Assembly (NCBI GenBank): GCA_947446285.1 | Contig: CANFGH010000004.1 | Location: 12,926-76,925, forward strand | DNA: 64,000 nucleotides | Direction: 5' to 3' | Source of the DNA: Chloroflexota bacterium | Lineage (GTDB): Bacteria > Chloroflexota > UBA11872 > UBA12225 | Shown: in pieces, positions 20,406-32,192 of the stretch | Layout of the letters: each line of letters starts with the position of its first letter | How positions within the stretch are numbered: the stretch's first letter is position 1 | Notes under the pieces: generated by a model | Seen by the model: the letters and a program-made list of their open reading frames with translations, nothing else | Told to the model about the DNA's origin: nothing | The model's database searches: none | Translations under genes and position numbers: made by a program

Positions 20406-21077
20406 ATGAGCGAATACCGACCCTACCCCACTGAGGATCTCCCTCCCGAAGACCCCGATGCCGAGGTCAGTGGCGAACATGAAGAGGTCGACGACTTGTC
20501 CGAATCTGGTGGTGAAGGTCGTCCTGCACGTCCGGCACCGAACACCGAACATCCCGGCGGACATCTGCAAGGGACTGTTGCACGACTGAACCGCCCGCGC
20601 CGGTTCGGTTTCCTCCGGGTTTCCGAGGGTGTTGAGGTCTTTTTCCATGCCTCAGCGATTGACAGCGGCCCACAAGCCTTCGACGCCCTGAGAACGGGCC
20701 AGGAAGTGGAGTTCCAGTGCCATCAGGACGATGGCGGCCGAGGATTGGCTGCGAGTGTCGTGACGGTCACCGGCGCACCTCCGGAAGCACCAGTAAGGGC
20801 ACCTCGCCCACCGCGTGCAGAGCGACCGGAACGTCCGGAGCGGGCAGAGCGCCCGGAGCGTCCCGAACGTCAGGCAGCCCCACGACCAGTCCGCGCATCG
20901 TCGCAGACCGGTTGGCATGTCGCGGTCCTTCGTGACCGATATGACATGGCGGTGCCAGCACAGCTTGAGAGGCTCCTTAACGAGCGTCACATCCGGCCGG
21001 GCAACTTCACGCTTGCGGTGAAGGAAGCGTCAGATGGAACCGCTGAGTGCTGGGTGGTCTACCACCTCGGCGACTAG
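20406..21077 (+). CDS. Cold-shock-domain-like protein with an (ERP)n linker and an uncharacterised C-terminal domain
   Basis: The segment GTVARLNRPRRFGFLRVSEGVEVFFHASAI..GQEVEF is CSD-like. It is followed by ERPERPERAERPERPER. Confidence 0.6.
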   Translation: MSEYRPYPTEDLPPEDPDAEVSGEHEEVDDLSESGGEGRPARPAPNTEHPGGHLQGTVARLNRPRRFGFLRVSEGVEVFFHASAIDSGPQAFDALRTGQEVEFQCHQDDGGRGLAASVVTVTGAPPEAPVRAPRPPRAERPERPERAERPERPERQAAPRPVRASSQTGWHVAVLRDRYDMAVPAQLERLLNERHIRPGNFTLAVKEASDGTAECWVVYHLGD

Positions 21078-22324: not shown

Positions 22325-22924
22325 ATGGGCCAAAAGGAAACCGGCGGCGCGGTGCTCGCCAAAAACGACGCCCCTACTGAACGGATTGCCGTTGCCGTCC
22401 CACGAGCCCTCGTGATCGACTATCTCAAGATCTTTGATGAACTTGAACGGGCAACGCACGCACAGCGCCAGTTCCACCATTCAGAGGCTTCGCGCCTCTC
22501 GCAGACACTGCTGAAGCAGCCCTTTCCAGAGCGACGGTTGGTGTCTCCAGCGCAGGTGCAACTTGTCATTGACCTGTCGGAACGGGGCCCGGGAACGATC
22601 GGAGAACTTGCGACCCGCCTGAAAGTAACACCATCTGCAATCAGCCTACTGGTTGACCGGATTGAGTCGCACGGGATAGTCGAGCGGGTACGGAGCACAC
22701 TTGACCGTCGGGTAGTGCAAGTACGTCTCACCGATGTCGCCACGCAGATCTCCGCCATCATGCTCCGTGTGGCGCGCGCTCAAATCGAAGAGTTCCTTGA
22801 GGCAACCCCTGCGGATGAGCGGGAGCCCTTCCTTAGAAACCTCACCCGGTTCGTGAAGACAATCGAACGGGTCGAGGATTTCATCCCCGATACACCACGA
22901 GTCACGACACCGGAGGCCACATGA
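22325..22924 (+). CDS. MarR-family transcriptional regulator
   Basis: Winged-helix region TIGELATRLKVTPSAISLLVDRIESHGIVERVRSTLDRRVVQVRLT. The gene lies directly upstream of the RND gene. Confidence 0.85.
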   Translation: MGQKETGGAVLAKNDAPTERIAVAVPRALVIDYLKIFDELERATHAQRQFHHSEASRLSQTLLKQPFPERRLVSPAQVQLVIDLSERGPGTIGELATRLKVTPSAISLLVDRIESHGIVERVRSTLDRRVVQVRLTDVATQISAIMLRVARAQIEEFLEATPADEREPFLRNLTRFVKTIERVEDFIPDTPRVTTPEAT

Positions 22925-23000
22925 GACGTGGCCCACCAGTCCAACCAACAAGGCTCCAGTCACGCACCATGAATTGCACACCGAAGGACGACCGTTCACA

Positions 23001-26000
23001 ATGACCAGCAAGACCACTCCAAACCAGCCAGCAAGTCACGAAGTTGAAAGTGCGCTGAATGACCCTTCCGGTGGCATTGGTGGCATCACCGCGCTGTCGA
23101 TCCGCAGGCCACTCTTGATGCTCATGGTCATCCTCTCGGTGATGATCTTTGGACTGATCGCCTACGGACGCCTAGGCGTTGACTTGTTTCCATCGGTGAA
23201 TTTCCCGGTGGTCAGTGTCAGCATCCCATATCCGGGTGCGAGCCCCGAGGTCGTTGAATCCCTTGTGACTCGACCGGTCGAGGACGCGGTGTCCGGCCTC
23301 GCAGACCTTGACACGATCAATTCGACGTCGTCAGAAGGCGTGGCGGTCGTGATCGTCACCTTCAAGGACAAGGCAGACCCTCAGACGGTCGCCATTGAGG
23401 TGGAAAAGCGGGTCAACGGAATTCGTGGCCAGCTACCCAATGACATCATTGCCCCCACAATCCTCAAATTCGACTTCACTGCCGCCCCCATCATCACTCT
23501 CGGACTGACGGGCGCCAACGTCACTCCTGCGCAGGCTTTCCGGATTGCAGATGAATTGGTGCGTCCGAAGCTGGAGACCACAAACGGTGTTGGTCAGGTC
23601 TCTATCTTTGGAGGCCAGCAGCGGGAAGTTCAGGTCAAGGTTGATCCAAATCGCCTTCGTGCCTACAACCTGACCCTCGCTCAGGTCTCCCAGGCACTTG
23701 GATCAGAAAACATCGACGCACCCGGTGGTCGCGTCGACGACGGCTCCCGGAACCTCAACATCCGCCTCGATGCAAGATTCCGCTCGGTCGATCAGATCAG
23801 GGATACGGTCGTACAGGCTTTGCCTACAGGCGGCACCATCCGGGTGCGTGACCTTGCTGAGGTGATCGACGGATACAAGGAACAGACCTTCCTGGCCCGC
23901 GTCAATGGGAGCCCCGGCGTCGGTATTTCCGTCTCAAAGCAATCGTCCTCAAACGTGACCCAAACAGCCGCCAACGTGCGGGCAACCCTGGCAAAAATAC
24001 GGACGACCCTCCCTGAGGGCGTCCAACTCATCGGTATTCAGGACCAGTCCGAATTCATCCAGACTTCCCTGGCTGGTGTTCAGCGAACCCTGCTGGAAGC
24101 GAACATCCTTACCGGTCTTGTCCTCCTTGCATTTCTTCATTCGTGGAGGAGCACACTGATCGTCCTGTTGGCGATCCCGACCTCGCTCATCGCCACGTTC
24201 GCCTTCATGTATTTGCAGGGGTTTACATTAAACTTCCTGACAACTCTTGCCTTGACGCTCACGGTCGGCATCCTCGTCGACGACAGTATCGTCGTGCTGG
24301 AAAACATCTTCCAGTTCCTCAAGCGCGGTGACTCCCCTCGAGTTGCCGCCGTACGGGGTCGCGCGGAAATTGGTCTCGCGGCCATCGCGATCACCTTGGT
24401 GGACGTCGTCGTCTTCGCTCCGGTAGGCCTTCTTTCGGGCCAGATCGGGCAGTTCTTCCGTCAGTTCGGGTTCACCGTTGTCGCCGCGACCCTCGCATCG
24501 CTCGCGGTCAGTTTCACACTCACTCCCTTGCTTGCGTCCCGCTGGCTTACATCGGAAGACGAACACGGAACCGGACCGCTCGCAATCTTCGGTCGCTGGT
24601 GGGACCGAGGCTTCGATCGACTCGAAGATCGGTACCGCGGGATCCTTCGCTGGTCACTCAGCCACCGTTGGGTCATCATGTTGGTGGCTGTCCTGTCATT
24701 TGCCGGGAGCATTGCCCTGCCGGCTGCAGGTCTGGTGAAGACCAGCTTCTTCCCGAACCAGGATCAGGGCACGTTCAATATCATTCTCGAACTCCCCCCG
24801 GGATCCACCCTTGACGCTACCGCGTCTGCGGTTGCTCAAATGGAAGCAGGGATCACCAAACTTCCCGAGTTCAAGGCCATCTATTCGGTCATCGGCCAAG
24901 GGGAAGGCGGAACGTCCCGCCAGTCTCGATTTGCAAATCTCCAAGTCATCCTCGTCGGGAAGCGCGAACGCACCAAATCAGTCGAACAGCTGGCACGGGA
25001 AGTCAAGGCTTTCGGTGAAGGTTTCCCCGGCCTGAAGGTTCGCGCAGGTGTTCCAGGGCCTGGAGGAGGCGCCGCGCAGCCGGTTAGCCTTCGTGTGTAT
25101 GGCGACGATCTCAAGGTCCTCAACGATCTGGCCGATAAGATCATCGGCAAGTTCCGCGAGACTGGTGGTCTCGTCGACATCACCAACAGCGGTCAAGCGG
25201 GTGCCCCGGAATACGTTGTCACGCTTGACCGGGCAAAGGCCGCTGATCTCGGTCTGTCCGCTGGCCAAGTGGCCCAGACGCTGAGGACCGCGTACGCCGG
25301 TTCTGTGGCCACAACCCTGCGTCGCGACCAGACTTCCGGAACCGCGAGTGGAGTTGACGTTCGTGTCCAGCTGACGGACGACACTCGAAAGGACATCACC
25401 CTTCTCCAGCAGGTGCCCCTCATTAGCCCTGCAAAGGGTGGCCAAGTTTACCTCGGCCAAATTGCGACCGTCGTTCCAGCTGCCGGTCCATCGCAGATCC
25501 AGCGCACCGACCGGCAGCGCGCGCTCACGATCGGTGCCAACCTCGGTGCAGGCCTGATCCTGAGTGATGTGACGAAACGGGTCAATGAAGCAATCGCTTC
25601 CGTTGAAGTTCCAGCAGGCTACCGGATCAAGATCGGCGGACAGGCTGACCAGCAGAACAACACGTTTACTGAATTCGGCAACGCGCTTCTCCTCTCGATC
25701 GCCCTTGTCTACATCCTCCTTGTAGCCCTCTACGAGTCTCTCCTCTATCCGCTGATCGTCATCGCGGCGCTGCCACTTGCCCTTGTCGGGGCAATGGGAG
25801 GGCTGGCCCTCGGACAAGAGACCCTGAATACCTTTTCGCTTATCGGGATCATCGCCCTCGTCGGCCTCGTTGGCAAGAACTCGATCCTTGTGATCGACTA
25901 CACCAACACTCTCCGGCGGGAGCAAGGGATGGGTAGATTTGACGCGCTCATGGAAGCGGGGCCACGACGGCTTCGTCCGATCCTCATGACCTCATCAGCA

Positions 26001-28637
26001 CTGATCTTCGCGCAGATCCCGCTGATGCTCAAGATCGAAGACGGCGCGGAGGTCCAGGCACCGATTGGCTGGGTCATTTTCGGCGGGATGATCAGTTCCA
26101 CCATTCTCGCCCTCGTCTTCGTCCCCACGCTGTACACACTCGTCGACGACTTCCAGAACTGGATTTTGCGGGGGTTCAAGCGCGACCGGTCGCGTGGACC
26201 TAAGGAGAAGGATATGAATGGATCGGGTTCCTCCACATCGGGCAACAACGACGAGATCGTTGTGCGTCCGGCCACGGAGAAGGTTGGCGTCGGGGCCACC
26301 GTCTCGCGCATCGCCACCACTGGCACCAACCTCGCAGTTGCAATCGTTGCCGTCGGAGGACTGTTCCTGAGTGCTTGCGGAACCCAGCCAGACACCGCCA
26401 AGGCTGCCCCGGTTGCGCCACCACTCAATGTGGCGGTCGTCGACGCTCGCAAGGAAACGGTTCGTGCGTCCGTGACCAGCAGTGGCGCGGTTGAGGCAAC
26501 GGATCAGGTTTCAGTCAGTACAAAGGTTTCGGGACGGGTCACCCGCCTCGACGCCGAAGTCGGCCAGAACGTGAAGGCCGGGCAACTGATCGCCGAACTT
26601 GATCGCGTGATCATCGAAGCCCAAGTTGCCCAAGCCGAAGCCGGACTGATGGGTGCCCAGGTCCGCTTGGGCCAACTCGAACGGGGACCACGCGCTGACG
26701 ATGTCGCCGTGGCCGCCGCCCAGCGCACCGCTGCCGAGAAGCAAGCCGACGCCGTCGCATCGCAAGCGGCTGTCGCAGAACAGTCCCTGACCACCTTTGA
26801 CGCCCAGATTGATGCCTCCACCAGCCAGGCCAACGCCTCCAAGGCGTCGGCACAGGCAGCAAAGACGCAGTCCCAAGGCGCACGTGCCCAGGCAAGCGGC
26901 GCGCGCAACCAGGCCAATGCCGCTCGCGCTCAGGCAAACGCCGCCAAAGTCCGCCTTGACCAGCTGAAGAACCCGCGTCCCGAAGACCTCGCTCTTCTTG
27001 AGAGCCAGGTCGAGACTGCCAAGATCCGACTTTCCCAGGCGTCCCAGCGTGACGAGGAAATCCGGGTTGTCCAGGCACAGGTCGAAGCCGCCCGCCTCGC
27101 CCTTCAGCAGGCGCAGGATCCGGCCCGCCCGGAACAGCTCCGGGCCGCTCAGGCACAGCTCGATGTCGCCAAGGCGACGCTGTCGAACCTCACCGAGGCT
27201 CCAGTCCGCGCTGAAGACCTTGAATCGATCCGTCTGGCGTATGAGAGCGCCGACAAGGCGTACGAAGCATCCGGTGACAGCCTGCGAATCGCCGAGAAGG
27301 CATATGACGCGGCCAAGCGCAGCCGGTCCACGTACGGCCCAGCCGTCGTGTCCGACTCGGTTCTCGCCCAGGCCGAAGGTGGTGTCGTCGCAGCTCAGGC
27401 AAATATCGAGCAAGCACGGATCCGCCGTGACACCGCCCGCGAGTCCTACAACAAGGCCCAAGCCGGCGCGACAGGTTGGGACCTCCGCAAGACCCAACTC
27501 GCCGTCGAAGCCGCGCAGGCCACCGTTGACCTGACCCGCAATCCTGACCCGGTCCGCGTCAAGAATGCCCAACTCACCCTCGAACAGGCTCAACTCAACC
27601 TCGAACTCCGGCAGCGCCAGATTGGCTTCGACCTCCAGACCGCCAAGGAAGGCCTGAAGGTTGCCGAGAACCAGCGCGCCAAGGTCGTCAACCCCGGAGA
27701 GTTCGACATCAAGTCCCTTGAAGAGGCTTCAAAGGCCGCTGAGGCCCAGGCACTCGGTGCGGAAGCTTCGGCCCAAGCCGCCGAAGCCAGCGCAGACGCC
27801 TCTGCAATCCAGGCAGAGGCTGCGGCTTCACAGGCCGGCGCCGCGGCCGCTCAGGTCAACGCTCTCTTGTCGCAGCGCACTGGGGCCGAATTCCAGATAA
27901 CAGGTGCCCGCAGTCAAGCCGACGGGGCGCGCGCAACCGCCGACCAGGCGGCTAGTGCGTACAAGTTGCGTGCGAACCCTTACACAGAGGACGACCTCAA
28001 GACCGCTCGTGTCGGTGTGGCTCAGGCCGAGGCGGCCGTCCGCCTCGGCCAAGCCAACCTTGCCGAAACCTACGTCTATGCGCCCATCGATGGCGTGATT
28101 ACCGCCCGGAACACCTCCATCGGATCACTGCTCAATCCGGGCCAACCAGTCGTCACCATCATTTCATCTGCCATCGAAATCACGGTCCCGGTTGAGGAAG
28201 CGAAGGTCGGTTCCGTCAAAGAAGGCCAAGCCGTCACGATGACCTCTCCCGCCCTTCCCGGAGTTTCGCTCGAAGGGAAGATCAACGCTGTCACTCCATC
28301 GGGTGACACCCGTAACCGTTCGTTCACCGCCCGCGTCCGCCTGGTGAAGCCCGACAGCCGACTGCGTCCGGGCATGTTCGTCAACACATCCATTGCCACC
28401 GAAGAGCGAGCGAACGCCATCGTGGTGAACCGCGAGGCCATCATCCTGACCAACGGCAAGAGCCAACTCTTCATAGTTGGAGCTGGCAACAAGGTTGAGA
28501 GCAGGGCCATCAAGGTGGGAATCTCCACGGGCAGCCTCGTGGAGGTTCTCGAAGGCGTGAGCGCCGGCGACAAGGTCATTGTCACGGGGGTCGAGGATCT
28601 CCGGGACGGACAGGTGGTCACCCCGGTATCGAAGTAG
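23001..28637 (+). CDS. RND (AcrB/HAE1-like) efflux permease fused in frame to a TM/lipobox segment and a periplasmic adaptor (MFP) with a giant coiled coil
   Basis: There is no in-frame stop from 23001 to 28637. The N-terminal ~1,070 aa are typical RND (SIRRPLLMLMV..FPSVNFPVVSV..). The segment ..LFLSAC (Cys codon 26376-26378) follows. Lipoyl, hairpin, beta-barrel and MP domains of an adaptor come next (VSGRVTRLDAEVGQNVKAGQLIAELD ... YVYAPIDGVI ...). The TTG at 22974 in the track is a less likely start than the ATG at 23001. Confidence 0.8.
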   Translation: MTSKTTPNQPASHEVESALNDPSGGIGGITALSIRRPLLMLMVILSVMIFGLIAYGRLGVDLFPSVNFPVVSVSIPYPGASPEVVESLVTRPVEDAVSGLADLDTINSTSSEGVAVVIVTFKDKADPQTVAIEVEKRVNGIRGQLPNDIIAPTILKFDFTAAPIITLGLTGANVTPAQAFRIADELVRPKLETTNGVGQVSIFGGQQREVQVKVDPNRLRAYNLTLAQVSQALGSENIDAPGGRVDDGSRNLNIRLDARFRSVDQIRDTVVQALPTGGTIRVRDLAEVIDGYKEQTFLARVNGSPGVGISVSKQSSSNVTQTAANVRATLAKIRTTLPEGVQLIGIQDQSEFIQTSLAGVQRTLLEANILTGLVLLAFLHSWRSTLIVLLAIPTSLIATFAFMYLQGFTLNFLTTLALTLTVGILVDDSIVVLENIFQFLKRGDSPRVAAVRGRAEIGLAAIAITLVDVVVFAPVGLLSGQIGQFFRQFGFTVVAATLASLAVSFTLTPLLASRWLTSEDEHGTGPLAIFGRWWDRGFDRLEDRYRGILRWSLSHRWVIMLVAVLSFAGSIALPAAGLVKTSFFPNQDQGTFNIILELPPGSTLDATASAVAQMEAGITKLPEFKAIYSVIGQGEGGTSRQSRFANLQVILVGKRERTKSVEQLAREVKAFGEGFPGLKVRAGVPGPGGGAAQPVSLRVYGDDLKVLNDLADKIIGKFRETGGLVDITNSGQAGAPEYVVTLDRAKAADLGLSAGQVAQTLRTAYAGSVATTLRRDQTSGTASGVDVRVQLTDDTRKDITLLQQVPLISPAKGGQVYLGQIATVVPAAGPSQIQRTDRQRALTIGANLGAGLILSDVTKRVNEAIASVEVPAGYRIKIGGQADQQNNTFTEFGNALLLSIALVYILLVALYESLLYPLIVIAALPLALVGAMGGLALGQETLNTFSLIGIIALVGLVGKNSILVIDYTNTLRREQGMGRFDALMEAGPRRLRPILMTSSALIFAQIPLMLKIEDGAEVQAPIGWVIFGGMISSTILALVFVPTLYTLVDDFQNWILRGFKRDRSRGPKEKDMNGSGSSTSGNNDEIVVRPATEKVGVGATVSRIATTGTNLAVAIVAVGGLFLSACGTQPDTAKAAPVAPPLNVAVVDARKETVRASVTSSGAVEATDQVSVSTKVSGRVTRLDAEVGQNVKAGQLIAELDRVIIEAQVAQAEAGLMGAQVRLGQLERGPRADDVAVAAAQRTAAEKQADAVASQAAVAEQSLTTFDAQIDASTSQANASKASAQAAKTQSQGARAQASGARNQANAARAQANAAKVRLDQLKNPRPEDLALLESQVETAKIRLSQASQRDEEIRVVQAQVEAARLALQQAQDPARPEQLRAAQAQLDVAKATLSNLTEAPVRAEDLESIRLAYESADKAYEASGDSLRIAEKAYDAAKRSRSTYGPAVVSDSVLAQAEGGVVAAQANIEQARIRRDTARESYNKAQAGATGWDLRKTQLAVEAAQATVDLTRNPDPVRVKNAQLTLEQAQLNLELRQRQIGFDLQTAKEGLKVAENQRAKVVNPGEFDIKSLEEASKAAEAQALGAEASAQAAEASADASAIQAEAAASQAGAAAAQVNALLSQRTGAEFQITGARSQADGARATADQAASAYKLRANPYTEDDLKTARVGVAQAEAAVRLGQANLAETYVYAPIDGVITARNTSIGSLLNPGQPVVTIISSAIEITVPVEEAKVGSVKEGQAVTMTSPALPGVSLEGKINAVTPSGDTRNRSFTARVRLVKPDSRLRPGMFVNTSIATEERANAIVVNREAIILTNGKSQLFIVGAGNKVESRAIKVGISTGSLVEVLEGVSAGDKVIVTGVEDLRDGQVVTPVSK

Positions 28638-30068: not shown

Positions 30069-31202
30069 TCAGAAACTCGTCGATAGTGGCACGGTACGGC
30101 CATCCCGGGCCGCGACCGGGCACGCGTTCATGATTTCAAGAACGTGGCGAGCATGAGCCGCCGTGAGGACGGGTTCGCGTCCCTCACGGATCGCCCCAAC
30201 CAGATCCTCAACCCCAATAGCCTGCTTGGCTCGGTCAAGCCGTGTCATCGGGGACATCCAGCCTCGCACACCGTGGTCCGCATCATCCAGATAAATCTCG
30301 AAAGGGAGACCACCGGCACGATCTCCACCCGGACTCCCGACGGAAAGCGATCCCTTGCTTCCGAAGATCTCCATCGATGGACCATTCGCCGCCTTCACGC
30401 AGTAACTGCTGTCCACAACTGCGAAGGTCGCGTTTCCAAAGTCCAGCGTGATGAGGTAGTTGTCCGGCACACCCGTGTGGATCTCCTTGCCGTCAAAGGC
30501 ACCTGACCGAACGGTCCGGACGGCCTCCGAGATGCCCGCCAGGCAACTCACCGCCCGAGCAGGTCCCAGGATCCCCGTGATCATTGTCAGTCCATGCACC
30601 CCCATGTCGAGCAGCGGACCCGCACCTTCCTGATGGAACCAAGACGGGTCATGGTCGCGATATTGGAAGTACTCCGGCCCACCATGAGATGACCGAACGC
30701 GTGCGAGTGACACCTTCCCTAGGGCACCCGAACCGACAAGGCGTCGCATCTCCCGCATTTCAGGCCGCAGCATGTGAATTGGCGACGCAGAAATGTAGAG
30801 ACCGCGCGCAGTGGCCTCGGTCATCAAGGTTGAAACCTCCTCGACCGTCGAGGCAAGCGGCTTCTGGGAATAGACATGGAGGCCAGCCTTCAAGGCTGCA
30901 AGGTTGACCGAAAAATGCGCCGGAATGCTTGCCAGATCGACAAGCGCGTCGACCTTTTCAGCCTGTGCAAATGCAATCAGCTTGTCAACATCAGTGAAGA
31001 CGTGGCGAACACCAAACCTCGCCGCCTGGGTCGCCGCCCAATCCGCCCGGACGTCGCACACGGCAACGATCTCGACAGCCGACATTTGGGCGATCTGAGG
31101 CAGGTACTGGTCGACAGCAATGCCACCCAGACCAACGATCACTAGACGGACGTTTCGCGACGGGTTCCCTGCCATCTTGCGCTCCAAATTCGACGGTGTC
31201 AC
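30069..31202 (-). CDS. Gfo/Idh/MocA-family oxidoreductase
   Basis: N-terminal VRLVIVGLGGIAVDQYLP Rossmann fold and the motif QKPLA in a 377-aa protein. Confidence 0.9.
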   Translation of the reverse strand: MTPSNLERKMAGNPSRNVRLVIVGLGGIAVDQYLPQIAQMSAVEIVAVCDVRADWAATQAARFGVRHVFTDVDKLIAFAQAEKVDALVDLASIPAHFSVNLAALKAGLHVYSQKPLASTVEEVSTLMTEATARGLYISASPIHMLRPEMREMRRLVGSGALGKVSLARVRSSHGGPEYFQYRDHDPSWFHQEGAGPLLDMGVHGLTMITGILGPARAVSCLAGISEAVRTVRSGAFDGKEIHTGVPDNYLITLDFGNATFAVVDSSYCVKAANGPSMEIFGSKGSLSVGSPGGDRAGGLPFEIYLDDADHGVRGWMSPMTRLDRAKQAIGVEDLVGAIREGREPVLTAAHARHVLEIMNACPVAARDGRTVPLSTSF

Positions 31203-31217
31203 AACCGCTTCACTGTG

Positions 31218-32192
31218 TCAGGAAAGTTCCGGAACGACGTGCAACGGTCGCTCTCCCCGGTGAACCCGGAGGACCTCGTCAAGGCACATCGCCGCCGAAC
31301 GTGTCTGCGCCTCGATTGCCGCACCGGCGCAGTGTGATGTCGGGATGACCTTCGGGTGTGCGATCAACGCCGCCTGTGCAGCGGTTGGTGGCTCATCGCT
31401 GAAGACGTCCAGCGCTGCCCCGCCCACATGACCGGTGACCAAAGCCTCGAGCAGGGCATGTTCATCGACAAGCTCACCACGGGCCGTGTTGATGATGCAG
31501 ACGCCCGCACGGGCCTGCGCGAGAGATGCGGAGTTGATCAAGTGCCGAGTACCCGCCGTTGATGGCGCGTGCAGGGTGACAATGTGGCTAGCAGCCATCA
31601 ATTCGTCAAGTGATACATAGGAAACGCCGGATTGCGATGCCCAATCATGATTGGGAAAGAGGTCGTACGCAACCAACTTCAGTCCGAAACCCACCGCCCG
31701 GGCCGCAACTTCACGACCGACGCGGCCAGTTCCCACAATCCCGAGCGTCTTGCCCCGGAGCTCGAAACCTGGAAACCGTGCCCATGTGCCATTCTTGGTC
31801 GCATTGGCGGTTTCGGTGACACGCCTCGCAAGGTCGAGCATGAGGCCGAACGTGTAATCGGCGACCGCATCGTGGTTCGAACCGACGGTACTCGTCACCC
31901 ACACTCCGTGAGCTCGCGCGGCCTCAAGGTCGATCGAGTCGTAGCCAACCCCGGATCGTGCAATAAGTTTCAAGGTTGGCGATGCCGCTGCAATCACCGC
32001 TTCCGTGTATGGGTCGGGCATCGAAACCGCGGCGATGCACCCCGGCAGTTGGTCGAGCAACTCCGCCTCGGTGAGCGTCACCGCCTTTGTATCCGGGATC
32101 ACCAGTTCAATCCCGGCTTCCCGCAACCGGTCGGCGTACTCGGGTAGCACCAGACGCACATTTCGCGCGGTAGCAAGGACACGTGCCGACAT
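31218..32192 (-). CDS. D-isomer-specific 2-hydroxyacid dehydrogenase (PGDH/GyaR-like)
   Basis: NAD-binding motif GIVGTGRVGREVA, plus NTARG and the catalytic His region. Confidence 0.9.
   Translation of the reverse strand: MSARVLATARNVRLVLPEYADRLREAGIELVIPDTKAVTLTEAELLDQLPGCIAAVSMPDPYTEAVIAAASPTLKLIARSGVGYDSIDLEAARAHGVWVTSTVGSNHDAVADYTFGLMLDLARRVTETANATKNGTWARFPGFELRGKTLGIVGTGRVGREVAARAVGFGLKLVAYDLFPNHDWASQSGVSYVSLDELMAASHIVTLHAPSTAGTRHLINSASLAQARAGVCIINTARGELVDEHALLEALVTGHVGGAALDVFSDEPPTAAQAALIAHPKVIPTSHCAGAAIEAQTRSAAMCLDEVLRVHRGERPLHVVPELS

What the first reader, a model, noticed from the sequence alone, without database searches (positions are those of the whole stretch)
26190..26380. Fusion junction retains a full internal translation-start signal and a lipoprotein signal
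The junction reads cc-TAAGGAGAAGGAT-ATG, an AAGGAG Shine-Dalgarno sequence 6 nt before the in-frame ATG at 26214. About 55 codons later comes a signal-anchor with lipobox (AVAIVAVGGLFLSAC). These are the features expected for an independently translated lipoprotein adaptor. One hypothesis is that the locus makes both the fusion and a free adaptor by internal initiation. That would top up the 1:1 fusion towards the usual 2:1 adaptor:pump ratio. The out-of-frame TAA inside the Shine-Dalgarno region also raises the possibility of frameshift-controlled fusion versus split expression.
Basis: inference. Interest (0 to 1): 0.6.

Follow-up and report, generated by a model that had tools for sequence, protein, structure and literature searches.

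The report
Pump–adaptor fusion keeps internal start
A Chloroflexota efflux pump gene is naturally fused to its adaptor gene, and every relative keeps a ribosome-binding site and start codon at the joint, so one gene probably makes both the fused protein and extra free adaptor.

Summary
ORF 22998-28637 (+) encodes a full RND permease joined in frame to a full periplasmic adaptor. At the joint lie TAAGGAG, a 6-nt spacer and an in-frame ATG (26214). Cys55 of that reading (26376) sits in an LSAC lipobox after a hydrophobic segment.

The fusion is not an artefact. It recurs in many independent assemblies and defines a monophyletic Chloroflexota clade (52-99% identity). Its sister group has separate pump and adaptor genes in the same order.

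In all 10 sequenced junctions the linker is unalignable and full of indels. Even so, it stays in frame and always holds one ATG with GGAG 5-7 nt upstream. Only 8% of the other 167 in-frame ATGs have such a site. The lipobox Cys is invariant.

It does not prove it. Codon choice cannot separate RNA-level from peptide-level constraint. The window's own junction mRNA is not unusually open. The n-region of the internal product is long.

The frameshift/TAA idea is not supported: the T is synonymous and absent at 94% identity, and there is no slippery site. I rate this a new variant of known kinds, of moderate interest.

The parts
22325..22924 (+). MarR-family regulator gene directly upstream. It is syntenic in the fused relatives and in the unfused sister.
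   Evidence: Pfam MarR 2.9e-12. MarR lies upstream of the pump gene in L012, L014, L015, L016, L019 and L020.
22998..28637 (+). Single ORF of 1879 codons plus stop that encodes the RND permease~adaptor fusion.
   Evidence: ORF list and translation. Full-length homologues of 1842-1888 aa at 52-97% identity. The 97% cluster has 142 members, with full-length copies from many independent assemblies, e.g. RLT56999.1.
23088..26144 (+). RND (HAE1-type) permease domain. It is complete, with the canonical 12 TM helices.
   Evidence: PF00873 ACR_tran aa 31-1049, matching profile positions 2-1020 of 1021, 886 bits. NF033617 RND_permease_2, 798 bits.
26145..26213 (+). Cytoplasmic C-terminal tail of the pump, the pre-Met part of the linker. 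It is not conserved in sequence or length but is always in frame.
   Evidence: Linker alignment is unalignable between clades. The distance from DDxQ to Met is 23, 30, 32, 37 or 46 aa in different loci, always a whole number of codons.
26201..26207 (+). Shine-Dalgarno sequence TAAGGAG, with a 6-nt spacer to the ATG. Its first three bases form the out-of-frame TAA.
   Evidence: Duplex with the anti-SD is -8.2 kcal/mol. GGAG at -11..-8 is 90-100% conserved across 10 loci while flanking columns are 40-60%. The T at 26201 is C in L020.
26214..26216 (+). In-frame ATG, the proposed internal start of a free adaptor.
   Evidence: An equivalent ATG with an SD is present in all 10 junctions. The JGI gene call P0029 starts at the homologous Met.
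26217..26309 (+). Acidic and Gly/Ser-rich N-terminal extension. It is predicted disordered and would be cytoplasmic.
   Evidence: AF2 pLDDT is below 50 for residues 1-67. Not alignable between clades.
26310..26375 (+). Hydrophobic segment I33-A54. It would be TM13 of the fusion, or the h-region of a signal peptide in the internal product.
   Evidence: Translation. A conserved hydrophobic block preceded by basic residues is present in all 14 proteins.
26367..26378 (+). Lipobox L-S-A-C, with Cys55 at 26376-26378.
   Evidence: L[ST][AG]C-G is conserved in all 14 fusion proteins and the Cys is invariant. Unfused relatives have a lipobox Cys after a short signal peptide.
26376..28634 (+). Mature adaptor (PAP/MFP) with lipoyl, beta-barrel and membrane-proximal domains.
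   Evidence: TIGR01730 185.7 bits. HlyD_D23, HlyD_3 and Biotin_lipoyl_2. The AF2 model matches AcrA, MexA, MacA, BesA, CusB and EmrA with Foldseek E values of 1e-19 to 1e-13.
26607..28064 (+). Unusually long alpha-helical hairpin region of the adaptor, about 486 residues.
   Evidence: AF2/DSSP helices span residues 132-617 with pLDDT mostly 70-90, including two 92-residue helices. The lipoyl half-motifs are split about 460 aa apart.

Best explanation
The region is the joint of a natural, evolutionarily stable gene fusion between an RND efflux permease and its membrane-fusion/periplasmic adaptor protein in a Chloroflexota lineage. The ancestor had separate genes in the order MarR - pump - adaptor. 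Loss of the pump stop codon joined them.

The pump's cytoplasmic C-terminus now continues through a disordered linker. It then enters a 13th hydrophobic helix, the former lipoprotein signal peptide, which carries the chain back across the membrane so that the adaptor sits outside.

The former adaptor ribosome-binding site (GGAG) and ATG (26214) have been kept inside the ORF. They most likely still recruit ribosomes. One mRNA would therefore give two products: the 1:1 tethered pump~adaptor and additional free adaptor. The free adaptor would be exported through the same hydrophobic segment and lipid-modified at Cys55.

Together these would supply more than one adaptor per pump protomer, as needed for the usual hexameric adaptor ring around a trimeric pump.

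Shown: the fusion is real, conserved and of single origin; SD+ATG, reading frame and lipobox are all conserved; the adaptor has a canonical PAP fold. Inferred: that initiation at 26214 happens, that the product is lipidated, and that the purpose is stoichiometry.
For: (1) The fusion is real. The ORF is continuous, both domains are full length, and there are 13 distinct full-length or near-full-length fused homologues at 52-97% identity. The 97% cluster has 142 members from many assemblies.

(2) Single origin. The fusions are monophyletic in an NJ tree of the pump domain. They are sister to the unfused P0135-P0138. The locus of one of these, L019, is MarR - pump - 47-nt spacer with AGGAGG - adaptor.

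(3) All 10 junction DNAs carry an in-frame ATG preceded by GGAG, AAGGAG(G) or AAGGA at 5-7 nt, with duplex energies of -6.6 to -13.1 kcal/mol. The loci are the window, L021 99%, L020 94%, L012 72%, L001 71%, L013 70%, L014 57%, L016 56%, L015 54%, L017 53% and L018 52%. L021 is near-identical to the window.

(4) Null comparison. Among the 167 other in-frame ATGs of eight fusion ORFs, only 5.4% reach -8 kcal/mol and 8.4% reach -6.5. Called gene starts in the same contigs have a median of -6.1.

(5) When the junctions are anchored at the ATG, GGAG is 90-100% conserved and the flanks are at the 40-60% background. At protein level the linker is unalignable between clades. The encoded peptides differ (KEKD, EEDG, KEDG, TEGE, KEGN, PETI, KEET), yet all spell xxG-GAG.

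(6) The frame is kept across at least four indels in the pre-Met linker, with lengths of 23, 30, 32, 37 and 46 aa. This implies that the fused product is itself selected.

(7) The lipobox Cys is invariant in all 14 fusion proteins. That is expected only if lipid modification or cleavage is still used.

(8) In five of eight loci the junction lies in the least-structured 1-9% of the ORF mRNA.

(9) RND pumps are known to need two adaptors per protomer, a 3:6:3 assembly (PMC3143649, PMC4446572).
Against: There are no expression data. Synonymous resampling shows that, given the encoded amino acids and codon usage, 36-91% of synonymous versions would be as SD-like as the observed sequence. RNA-level selection therefore cannot be separated from selection on a charged xExxM peptide.

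In the window itself, and in L020 and L012, the mRNA around the junction is no less structured than the ORF average, at the 48th-75th percentile. In the window the SD is predicted to pair with a downstream CCUCC, although that fold is not significant (z = 0.56).

The internal product would have its lipobox Cys at position 55, and at positions 37-64 in relatives. This is far beyond the usual 15-35. Stand-alone Chloroflexota adaptors such as P0246 and P0250 also have long n-regions, however.

The lineages are related, so the 10 junctions are not 10 independent trials. There are roughly five clades with different linkers.
Confidence: 0.55

Rival explanations
1. Polyprotein processing only. The fusion is the sole translation product. 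TM13 with its lipobox is recognised by Lgt and signal peptidase II, which cut before Cys55. This releases a lipidated adaptor and a 13-TM pump at a strict 1:1 ratio. The SD-ATG would be a relic or a peptide motif. This could also operate alongside internal initiation.
For: The lipobox Cys is invariant in all fusion proteins. The hydrophobic segment with preceding basic residues looks like an intact lipoprotein signal peptide inherited from the unfused state. The frame is kept across indels, so the fused precursor matters. Codon choice does not prove RNA-level constraint on the SD.
Against: It does not explain why a GGAG at the right spacing plus an ATG survives in every clade inside a linker that has otherwise randomised. 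Cleavage of an internal lipobox about 1,130 residues into a polytopic protein is not a documented Lgt/Lsp substrate type (own knowledge). A 1:1 ratio falls short of the 2:1 seen in solved RND assemblies (PMC3143649, PMC4446572).
Confidence: 0.2
2. Only an uncleaved fusion is made. TM13 is a plain membrane anchor. The SD-ATG and lipobox are non-functional leftovers, or reflect selection on the peptide (a charged patch plus Met).
For: Synonymous resampling shows that the SD follows largely from the K/E/G codons in a high-GC genome. The window's junction mRNA is not unusually open. No internal promoter-like site was found upstream of 26214 on the + strand.
Against: The clade has diverged to about 50% identity with an unalignable linker, so neutral relics should have decayed. 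Yet 10 of 10 junctions keep SD+ATG against an 8% background, and 14 of 14 proteins keep the lipobox Cys. The peptide before the Met is not conserved as a peptide: only the nucleotides xxG-GAG and the Met are.
Confidence: 0.12
3. Frameshift-controlled split. A fraction of ribosomes shift to the -1 frame before the joint and terminate at TAA 26201, giving a free pump. The adaptor is then made by termination-reinitiation at 26214.
For: TAA is present in the -1 frame 13 nt before the ATG in the window and in L021, and a TGA is at the same offset in L012.
Against: The T is a synonymous third base (CCT/CCC Pro) and is C in L020 at 94% identity. L015, L016 and L001 have no -1-frame stop within 200 nt upstream, and the other loci have them at scattered offsets. 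The window has no X XXY YYZ slippery heptamer within 200 nt upstream. TAAGGAG and TGAGGAGG are simply extended matches to the anti-SD.
Confidence: 0.02
4. Assembly or sequencing artefact: a missed stop codon or indel falsely joins two genes.
For: Some related contigs, which look like error-prone assemblies (L001, L018, P0134), show frameshifts elsewhere in the gene.
Against: The same continuous ORF is present in many independent assemblies and samples, and in clades down to 52% identity with different linker lengths.
Confidence: 0.01

Closest known systems
Tripartite RND efflux systems with a separate lipoprotein adaptor (AcrAB-TolC, MexAB-OprM, MtrCDE, CusCBA)
   Same: There is a full-length HAE1-type RND permease and a canonical PAP with lipoyl, beta-barrel, membrane-proximal and hairpin domains. 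The adaptor has a lipobox. A local repressor gene lies upstream.
   Different: The pump and adaptor are one ORF in the order pump then adaptor. No outer-membrane factor gene is adjacent. The hairpin region is about 486 residues, against about 60-130 in AcrA and EmrA. The host is Chloroflexota. The known assemblies use two free adaptors per pump protomer (PMC3143649, PMC4446572).
Unfused sister operon in Chloroflexota (L019: MarR - pump P0136 - adaptor, GCA_042408875.1)
   Same: The gene order and regulator are the same. The pump is 55% identical and is the sister clade in the tree. The adaptor is a long-hairpin lipoprotein of the same family. An AGGAGG SD lies before the adaptor ATG.
   Different: The pump ends in TGA, followed by a 47-nt spacer. 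The adaptor has a short 25-residue signal peptide (MKRLPSKVAGLAAAGVALAVLLLPAC) rather than a 37-64-residue one.
Engineered or natural adaptor fusions (AcrA fused to AcrZ for cryo-EM, tandem AcrA dimers, natural fused-dimer PAP DSY0927)
   Same: Covalent tethering of an adaptor is compatible with function and has been used to fix stoichiometry (PMC4446572).
   Different: Those are laboratory constructs or PAP-PAP fusions. I found no description of a natural RND-PAP fusion in the searched library. None of them relies on an internal start.
In-frame internal translation starts that yield a shorter proteoform co-assembling with the full-length protein (SpaO long/short in the T3SS sorting platform, Cas8b/Cas11b, two-polypeptide phage endolysins)
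   Same: There is an SD+ATG inside an ORF at a domain boundary. [quoted passage not shown] The proposed role is to set subunit ratio in a complex (PMC13059759, PMC11899642, PMC9430671).
   Different: Here the short form must be exported and lipidated, and the long form is a polytopic membrane transporter. Nothing here has been shown experimentally.
YknX-type adaptors of Gram-positive (monoderm) bacteria
   Same: Precomputed Pfam hits to YknX_C (PF25989) are recorded on the adaptor part. It is an adaptor with a hairpin in a lineage usually regarded as lacking a classical outer membrane (PMC4446572).
   Different: YknX partners an ABC/FtsX-type transporter, not an RND pump, and is not fused to it.

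Membership tests
RND permease, HAE1 type (Pfam PF00873 ACR_tran) | Full-length match to the 12-TM, two-large-loop RND architecture above the curated threshold | tested here: met
   PF00873 covers aa 31-1049, matching profile positions 2-1020 of 1021, at 886 bits against a cut-off of 28. The NCBIfam RND_permease_2 score of 798 bits is below that subfamily's strict cut-off of 1250, so the protein is a divergent member.
Periplasmic adaptor / membrane fusion protein of RND pumps (TIGR01730 RND_mfp) | Score above the family cut-off, with lipoyl, beta-barrel and membrane-proximal domains and an alpha-hairpin | tested here: met
   TIGR01730 scores 185.7 bits against a cut-off of 94.9. The AF2 model has a mean pLDDT of 76.7, with strands at residues 71-129 and 620-806 and helices at 132-617. 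Foldseek top hits are AcrA, TMexC, MexA, MacA, BesA, ZneB, CusB and EmrA.
Bacterial lipoprotein precursor (Lgt/Lsp substrate) | Lipobox [LVI][ASTVI][GAS]C after an uncharged hydrophobic stretch preceded by a basic residue | tested here: met
   R32, then 19 residues free of D, E, R, K and Q, then L-S-A-C55. The Cys is invariant in the 14 fusion proteins and a lipobox Cys is present in the unfused relatives.
Bacterial lipoprotein precursor (Lgt/Lsp substrate) | Cys within about 15-35 residues of the N-terminus (PROSITE PS51257-type rule, from own knowledge) | tested here: not met
   Cys is residue 55 from Met26214, and residue 37-64 in relatives. It is about residue 1127 of the fusion.
Bacterial lipoprotein precursor (Lgt/Lsp substrate) | Actual diacylglyceryl modification and signal peptidase II cleavage | not testable with these tools
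   This needs mass spectrometry, globomycin sensitivity or lipid labelling. The presence of lgt and lsp in this genome was not examined.
Internal in-frame translation initiation site (N-terminal proteoform) | SD complementary to the anti-SD at 4-9 nt from an in-frame start codon | tested here: met
   TAAGGAG with a 6-nt spacer, -8.2 kcal/mol. It is the only one of 16 in-frame ATGs in this ORF with such a site.
Internal in-frame translation initiation site (N-terminal proteoform) | Conservation of SD+start in orthologues beyond the surrounding sequence | tested here: met
   10 of 10 junctions carry it. GGAG and ATG columns are 90-100% conserved against 40-60% in the flanks. The background among other in-frame ATGs is 8%. 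Caveat: this cannot be separated from peptide constraint by codon choice.
Internal in-frame translation initiation site (N-terminal proteoform) | Locally reduced mRNA structure around the start | tested here: inconclusive
   The junction is in the lowest 1-9% of structure in L013-L017, but at the 48th-75th percentile in the window, L020 and L012.
Internal in-frame translation initiation site (N-terminal proteoform) | Ribosome initiation or a protein N-terminus observed at the site | not testable with these tools
   No Ribo-seq or proteomics is available for this uncultured lineage.
Programmed -1 ribosomal frameshift site | Slippery heptamer X XXY YYZ in frame, with a conserved -1-frame stop or stimulator | tested here: not met
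   No heptamer lies within 200 nt upstream in the window. The -1 stop is absent in L020, L015, L016 and L001.

The most novel reading that the evidence does not exclude
One gene encodes a complete pump:adaptor assembly with two adaptors per pump protomer. The tethered adaptor and the internally initiated free adaptor would occupy the two non-equivalent adaptor positions around each pump protomer. The ~486-residue helical hairpins would form a very long TolC-independent exit tube through the Chloroflexota envelope. This would be a natural counterpart of the engineered fusions used to fix AcrAB stoichiometry, and a previously undescribed architecture for RND efflux.
Probability: 0.25. Interest if true: 0.75.

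Novelty: new variant of a known kind. Interest (0 to 1): 0.55.

Why it matters
RND pumps are central to drug and toxin efflux, and how the 2:1 adaptor:pump ratio is achieved and maintained is normally left to separate gene expression. A natural pump~adaptor fusion would matter in three ways.

- It would show that covalent tethering of one adaptor is compatible with function in nature.
- It would be an example of internal translation initiation being used to set subunit stoichiometry in a membrane transport machine.
- It would give a tractable construct for structural work on RND pumps from a phylum with an atypical envelope, because the pump and adaptor are already linked.

It also has a practical consequence for annotation. 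Pipelines currently label these roughly 1,880-aa proteins as either 'permease' or 'adaptor'. They miss both the fusion and the probable second product.

Tried and rejected
1. The genome-contig scan with the adaptor alignment chose low-complexity A/Q-rich patterns.
It gave only one close relative (L021, 99%). The other 79 loci were distant adaptors, none with an RND fused upstream in frame.
3. The first protein search with the 450-aa junction segment returned mostly short fragments. The full-length query was needed to find the fusions.
4. No DNA could be retrieved for P0029, a stand-alone-called adaptor that starts at the homologous Met, or for P0131. I therefore cannot say whether any clade member is truly unfused.
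5. The synonymous-codon resampling test for RNA-level selection on the SD had no discriminating power.
6. The mRNA accessibility test gave mixed results.
7. The predicted SD:CCUCC hairpin in the window is not significant and is confined to the window's sub-clade. I rejected it as a conserved regulator.
8. No sigma-70-like promoter lies on the + strand upstream of 26214 inside the pump gene.
9. The frameshift/TAA idea was rejected.
10. The Rfam scan of the window found nothing.
11. Literature searches for natural RND-adaptor fusions found none. This shows absence in the held library only.


Full report
**1. Observation**

The sequence at the stated coordinates is as described. It reads 26199 CCT AAG GAG AAG GAT ATG 26216. 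AAGGAG lies six bases before an ATG that is in frame with a very long ORF, 22974/22998-28637 on the + strand. The TAA at 26201-26203 is in the -1 frame. Counting from Met26214, the peptide is MNGSGSSTSGNNDEIVVRPATEKVGVGATVSRIATTGTNLAVAIVAVGGLFLSAC. It has a single basic residue (R32), then a 19-residue uncharged hydrophobic stretch, then L-S-A-C55 (26367-26378). That is a good lipobox.

**2. What the ORF is**

Pfam places a complete RND permease on residues 31-1049 (ACR_tran, profile positions 2-1020 of 1021, 886 bits). HlyD/lipoyl adaptor domains lie on residues about 1171-1202 and 1665-1795. NCBIfam RND_mfp (TIGR01730) scores 172-186 bits against a cut-off of 94.9.

An AlphaFold2 model of the part from Met26214 has a mean pLDDT of 76.7. 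Residues 1-67 are disordered (pLDDT below 50). Beta domains lie at 71-129 and 620-806. Between them is a helical region of about 486 residues, 132-617. Foldseek matches it to AcrA, TMexC, MexA, MacA, BesA, ZneB, CusB and EmrA.

The gene therefore encodes pump, linker, hydrophobic helix with lipobox, and adaptor. The RND C-terminus is cytoplasmic in AcrB-type pumps (established knowledge). The extra helix is thus exactly what is needed to put the adaptor on the outer face of the membrane. A MarR gene lies immediately upstream, at 22325-22924.

**3. The fusion is real, conserved and of single origin**

A full-length search found fused proteins of 1842-1888 aa at 97, 94, 72, 72, 70, 57, 62, 54, 56, 53 and 52% identity. 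Where named, they come from Chloroflexota MAGs. The 97% cluster alone has 142 members. Full-length copies come from many independent assemblies, for example RLT56999.1, and annotators label them either 'permease' or 'adaptor'.

In a neighbour-joining tree of the pump domain, the fused proteins form one clade. Its sister is a group of unfused pumps, P0135-P0138. The locus of one of these (L019) reads MarR - pump - TGA - 47-nt spacer containing AGGAGG - ATG adaptor. That adaptor has a short 25-residue lipoprotein signal peptide. The ancestral state was therefore two genes in the same order, and the fusion arose once by loss of the pump stop.

In a 50%-clustered library of 1.8 billion proteins, this family collapses to a single fused representative. 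At most one or two unrelated candidates (P0338, P0297) show a similar layout. None of 79 more distant adaptor loci from metagenomes has an RND fused upstream in frame.

**4. The junction across the clade**

I obtained junction DNA for ten loci: the window, L021, L020, L012, L001, L013, L014, L016, L015, L017 and L018. L021 is nearly identical to the window.

At protein level the linker cannot be aligned between clades. The distance from the end of the pump (DDxQ) to the Met is 23, 30, 32, 37 or 46 residues. The distance from Met to Cys is 36-63 residues.

Every locus nevertheless has an in-frame ATG preceded at 5-7 nt by TAAGGAG, AAGGAG, AGGAGG, AAGGAGG, GGAGG, GGAG or AAGGA. Anti-SD duplex energies range from -6.6 to -13.1 kcal/mol. 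When the sequences are anchored on the ATG, GGAG at -11..-8 and the ATG are 90-100% conserved. Flanking columns sit at the 40-60% background. The peptides before the Met differ (KEKD, EEDG, KEDG, TEGE, KEGN, PETI, KEGD, KEET). What they share is the nucleotide string xxG-GAG.

For comparison, only 5.4% of the 167 other in-frame ATG codons in eight fusion ORFs have a duplex of -8 or better, and 8.4% reach -6.5. Called gene starts on the same contigs have a median of -6.1, with 36% at -8 or better. In the window's ORF the junction ATG is the only one of 16 with such a site.

If the roughly five clades with different linkers are treated as independent, chance retention is of the order of 0.08^5. 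That figure is my own rough inference.

**5. Two further signs of selection**

First, at least four indels separate the pre-Met linkers and all preserve the frame, with no stop. The fused polypeptide is therefore itself maintained. If only the internal product mattered, frameshifts there would be harmless.

Second, the lipobox (L[ST][AG]C-G) is conserved and its Cys is invariant in all 14 fusion proteins. A plain membrane anchor would not need the Cys. This implies that Lgt/Lsp-type processing still acts on at least one product.

**6. Most likely mechanism**

One mRNA gives two products. The first is the pump~adaptor fusion, in which the former signal peptide serves as TM13. The second is a free adaptor initiated at 26214, exported by the same hydrophobic segment and lipid-anchored at Cys55.

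Solved and biochemically characterised RND assemblies have six adaptors per pump trimer (PMC3143649, PMC4446572). A 1:1 fusion alone would therefore be short of adaptor, and internal initiation would make up the difference.

The logic has experimentally supported precedents: SpaO long/short, Cas8b/Cas11b and two-polypeptide endolysins (PMC13059759, PMC11899642, PMC9430671). Tethered or tandem adaptors are known to work in engineered AcrA constructs, and a natural PAP-PAP fusion exists (PMC4446572).

- **Shown here:** the anatomy and its conservation.
- **Inferred:** initiation, lipidation and the stoichiometric purpose.

**7. Caveats and rivals**

- Resampling synonymous codons shows that 36-91% of synonymous versions of the six or seven codons before the Met would be equally SD-like. 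Codon choice therefore adds nothing. A constraint on a charged xExxM peptide cannot be formally excluded, although no such peptide function is evident.
- mRNA around the junction is among the least structured 1-9% of the ORF in L013-L017. It is average in the window, L020 and L012.
- In the window the SD can pair with a downstream CCUCC. That fold is not better than shuffled sequence (z = 0.56), and the CCUCC is absent from other clades.
- The internal product would have an unusually long n-region, with Cys at position 55. Stand-alone Chloroflexota adaptors such as P0246 and P0250 also have n-regions of 26-34 residues.
- A processing-only model, with Lsp cutting the fusion at the lipobox, explains the Cys but not the SD-ATG. 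It may well act in addition to internal initiation.
- A model in which both features are leftovers is hard to reconcile with divergence to 50% identity.

**8. The frameshift suggestion**

The T that creates TAA is the synonymous third base of a Pro codon. It is present in L021 (99%) but is C in L020 (94%). Stops in the -1 frame occur at scattered offsets or not at all in other loci. There is no X XXY YYZ heptamer within 200 nt upstream in the window. TAAGGAG is simply a longer match to the anti-SD. I regard this part of the interpretation as unsupported.

**9. Novelty and verdict**

The components are known: an RND pump, a PAP, a lipobox and an internal start. I found no description of a natural RND~PAP fusion, or of one with a retained internal start, in the searchable literature. 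Annotation pipelines do not flag it.

I classify it as a new variant of known kinds. Interest is moderate (0.55). It would rise if the two-product, 3:6 assembly, or a TolC-independent long exit tube, were demonstrated.

Noticed in passing
window 26607-28064 (adaptor residues 132-617): The adaptor carries about 486 residues of helix between its lipoyl half-motifs, including two 92-residue helices. This is several times longer than the AcrA, MacA or EmrA hairpins. No outer-membrane-factor gene is adjacent. It might form a very long exit tube in a lineage with an atypical envelope. The global arrangement in the model is uncertain (pTM 0.29).
   Followed up: partly
window 22325-22924 and 30069-32192; L012, L020: Synteny is conserved: MarR lies upstream of the fusion in all loci with enough flank. 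A GFO_IDH_MocA oxidoreductase and a 2-hydroxyacid dehydrogenase lie downstream on the opposite strand in the window, L012 and L020.
   Followed up: partly
window 26204-26249: The SD GGAG is predicted to pair with a downstream CCUCC (about 26243-26249) in a small hairpin that also covers the ATG. The fold is no better than shuffles (z = 0.56), and the CCUCC occurs only in the window's own sub-clade (L020, L021).
   Followed up: yes
P0338 (1504 aa) and P0297 (1300 aa): P0338 is an unrelated protein (31% identity) with an RND part followed by an Arg/Cys-rich junk-like linker and then an adaptor with its own signal peptide and lipobox. It may be an independent read-through fusion or a frameshift artefact. 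P0297 is an RND with an N-terminal extension of about 270 aa.
   Followed up: no
L001 (ERZ25039547 contig_127575), L018 (ERZ25039476 contig_56234), P0134: Some related contigs break the fusion ORF by frameshifts at other places. In L001 this happens just after the junction ATG, in a G/C homopolymer-rich stretch. The clean homologue P0132 reads through there, so these look like assembly errors rather than real splits.
   Followed up: partly
P0029 (JGI 3300045391, 2372-nt contig): A gene caller started a 747-aa stand-alone adaptor exactly at the Met homologous to 26214, with 60 nt of contig upstream. No DNA was retrievable, so it is unknown whether this clade member is unfused.
   Followed up: partly
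window 20406-21074 (+): This ORF has a cold-shock (CSD) domain embedded in a 223-aa protein, plus a weak EspG-family hit. That is unusual for a cold-shock protein.
   Followed up: no
window 1-64000: The Rfam scan at gathering thresholds found no RNA family anywhere in the 64-kb window: no tRNA, rRNA or riboswitch.
   Followed up: yes
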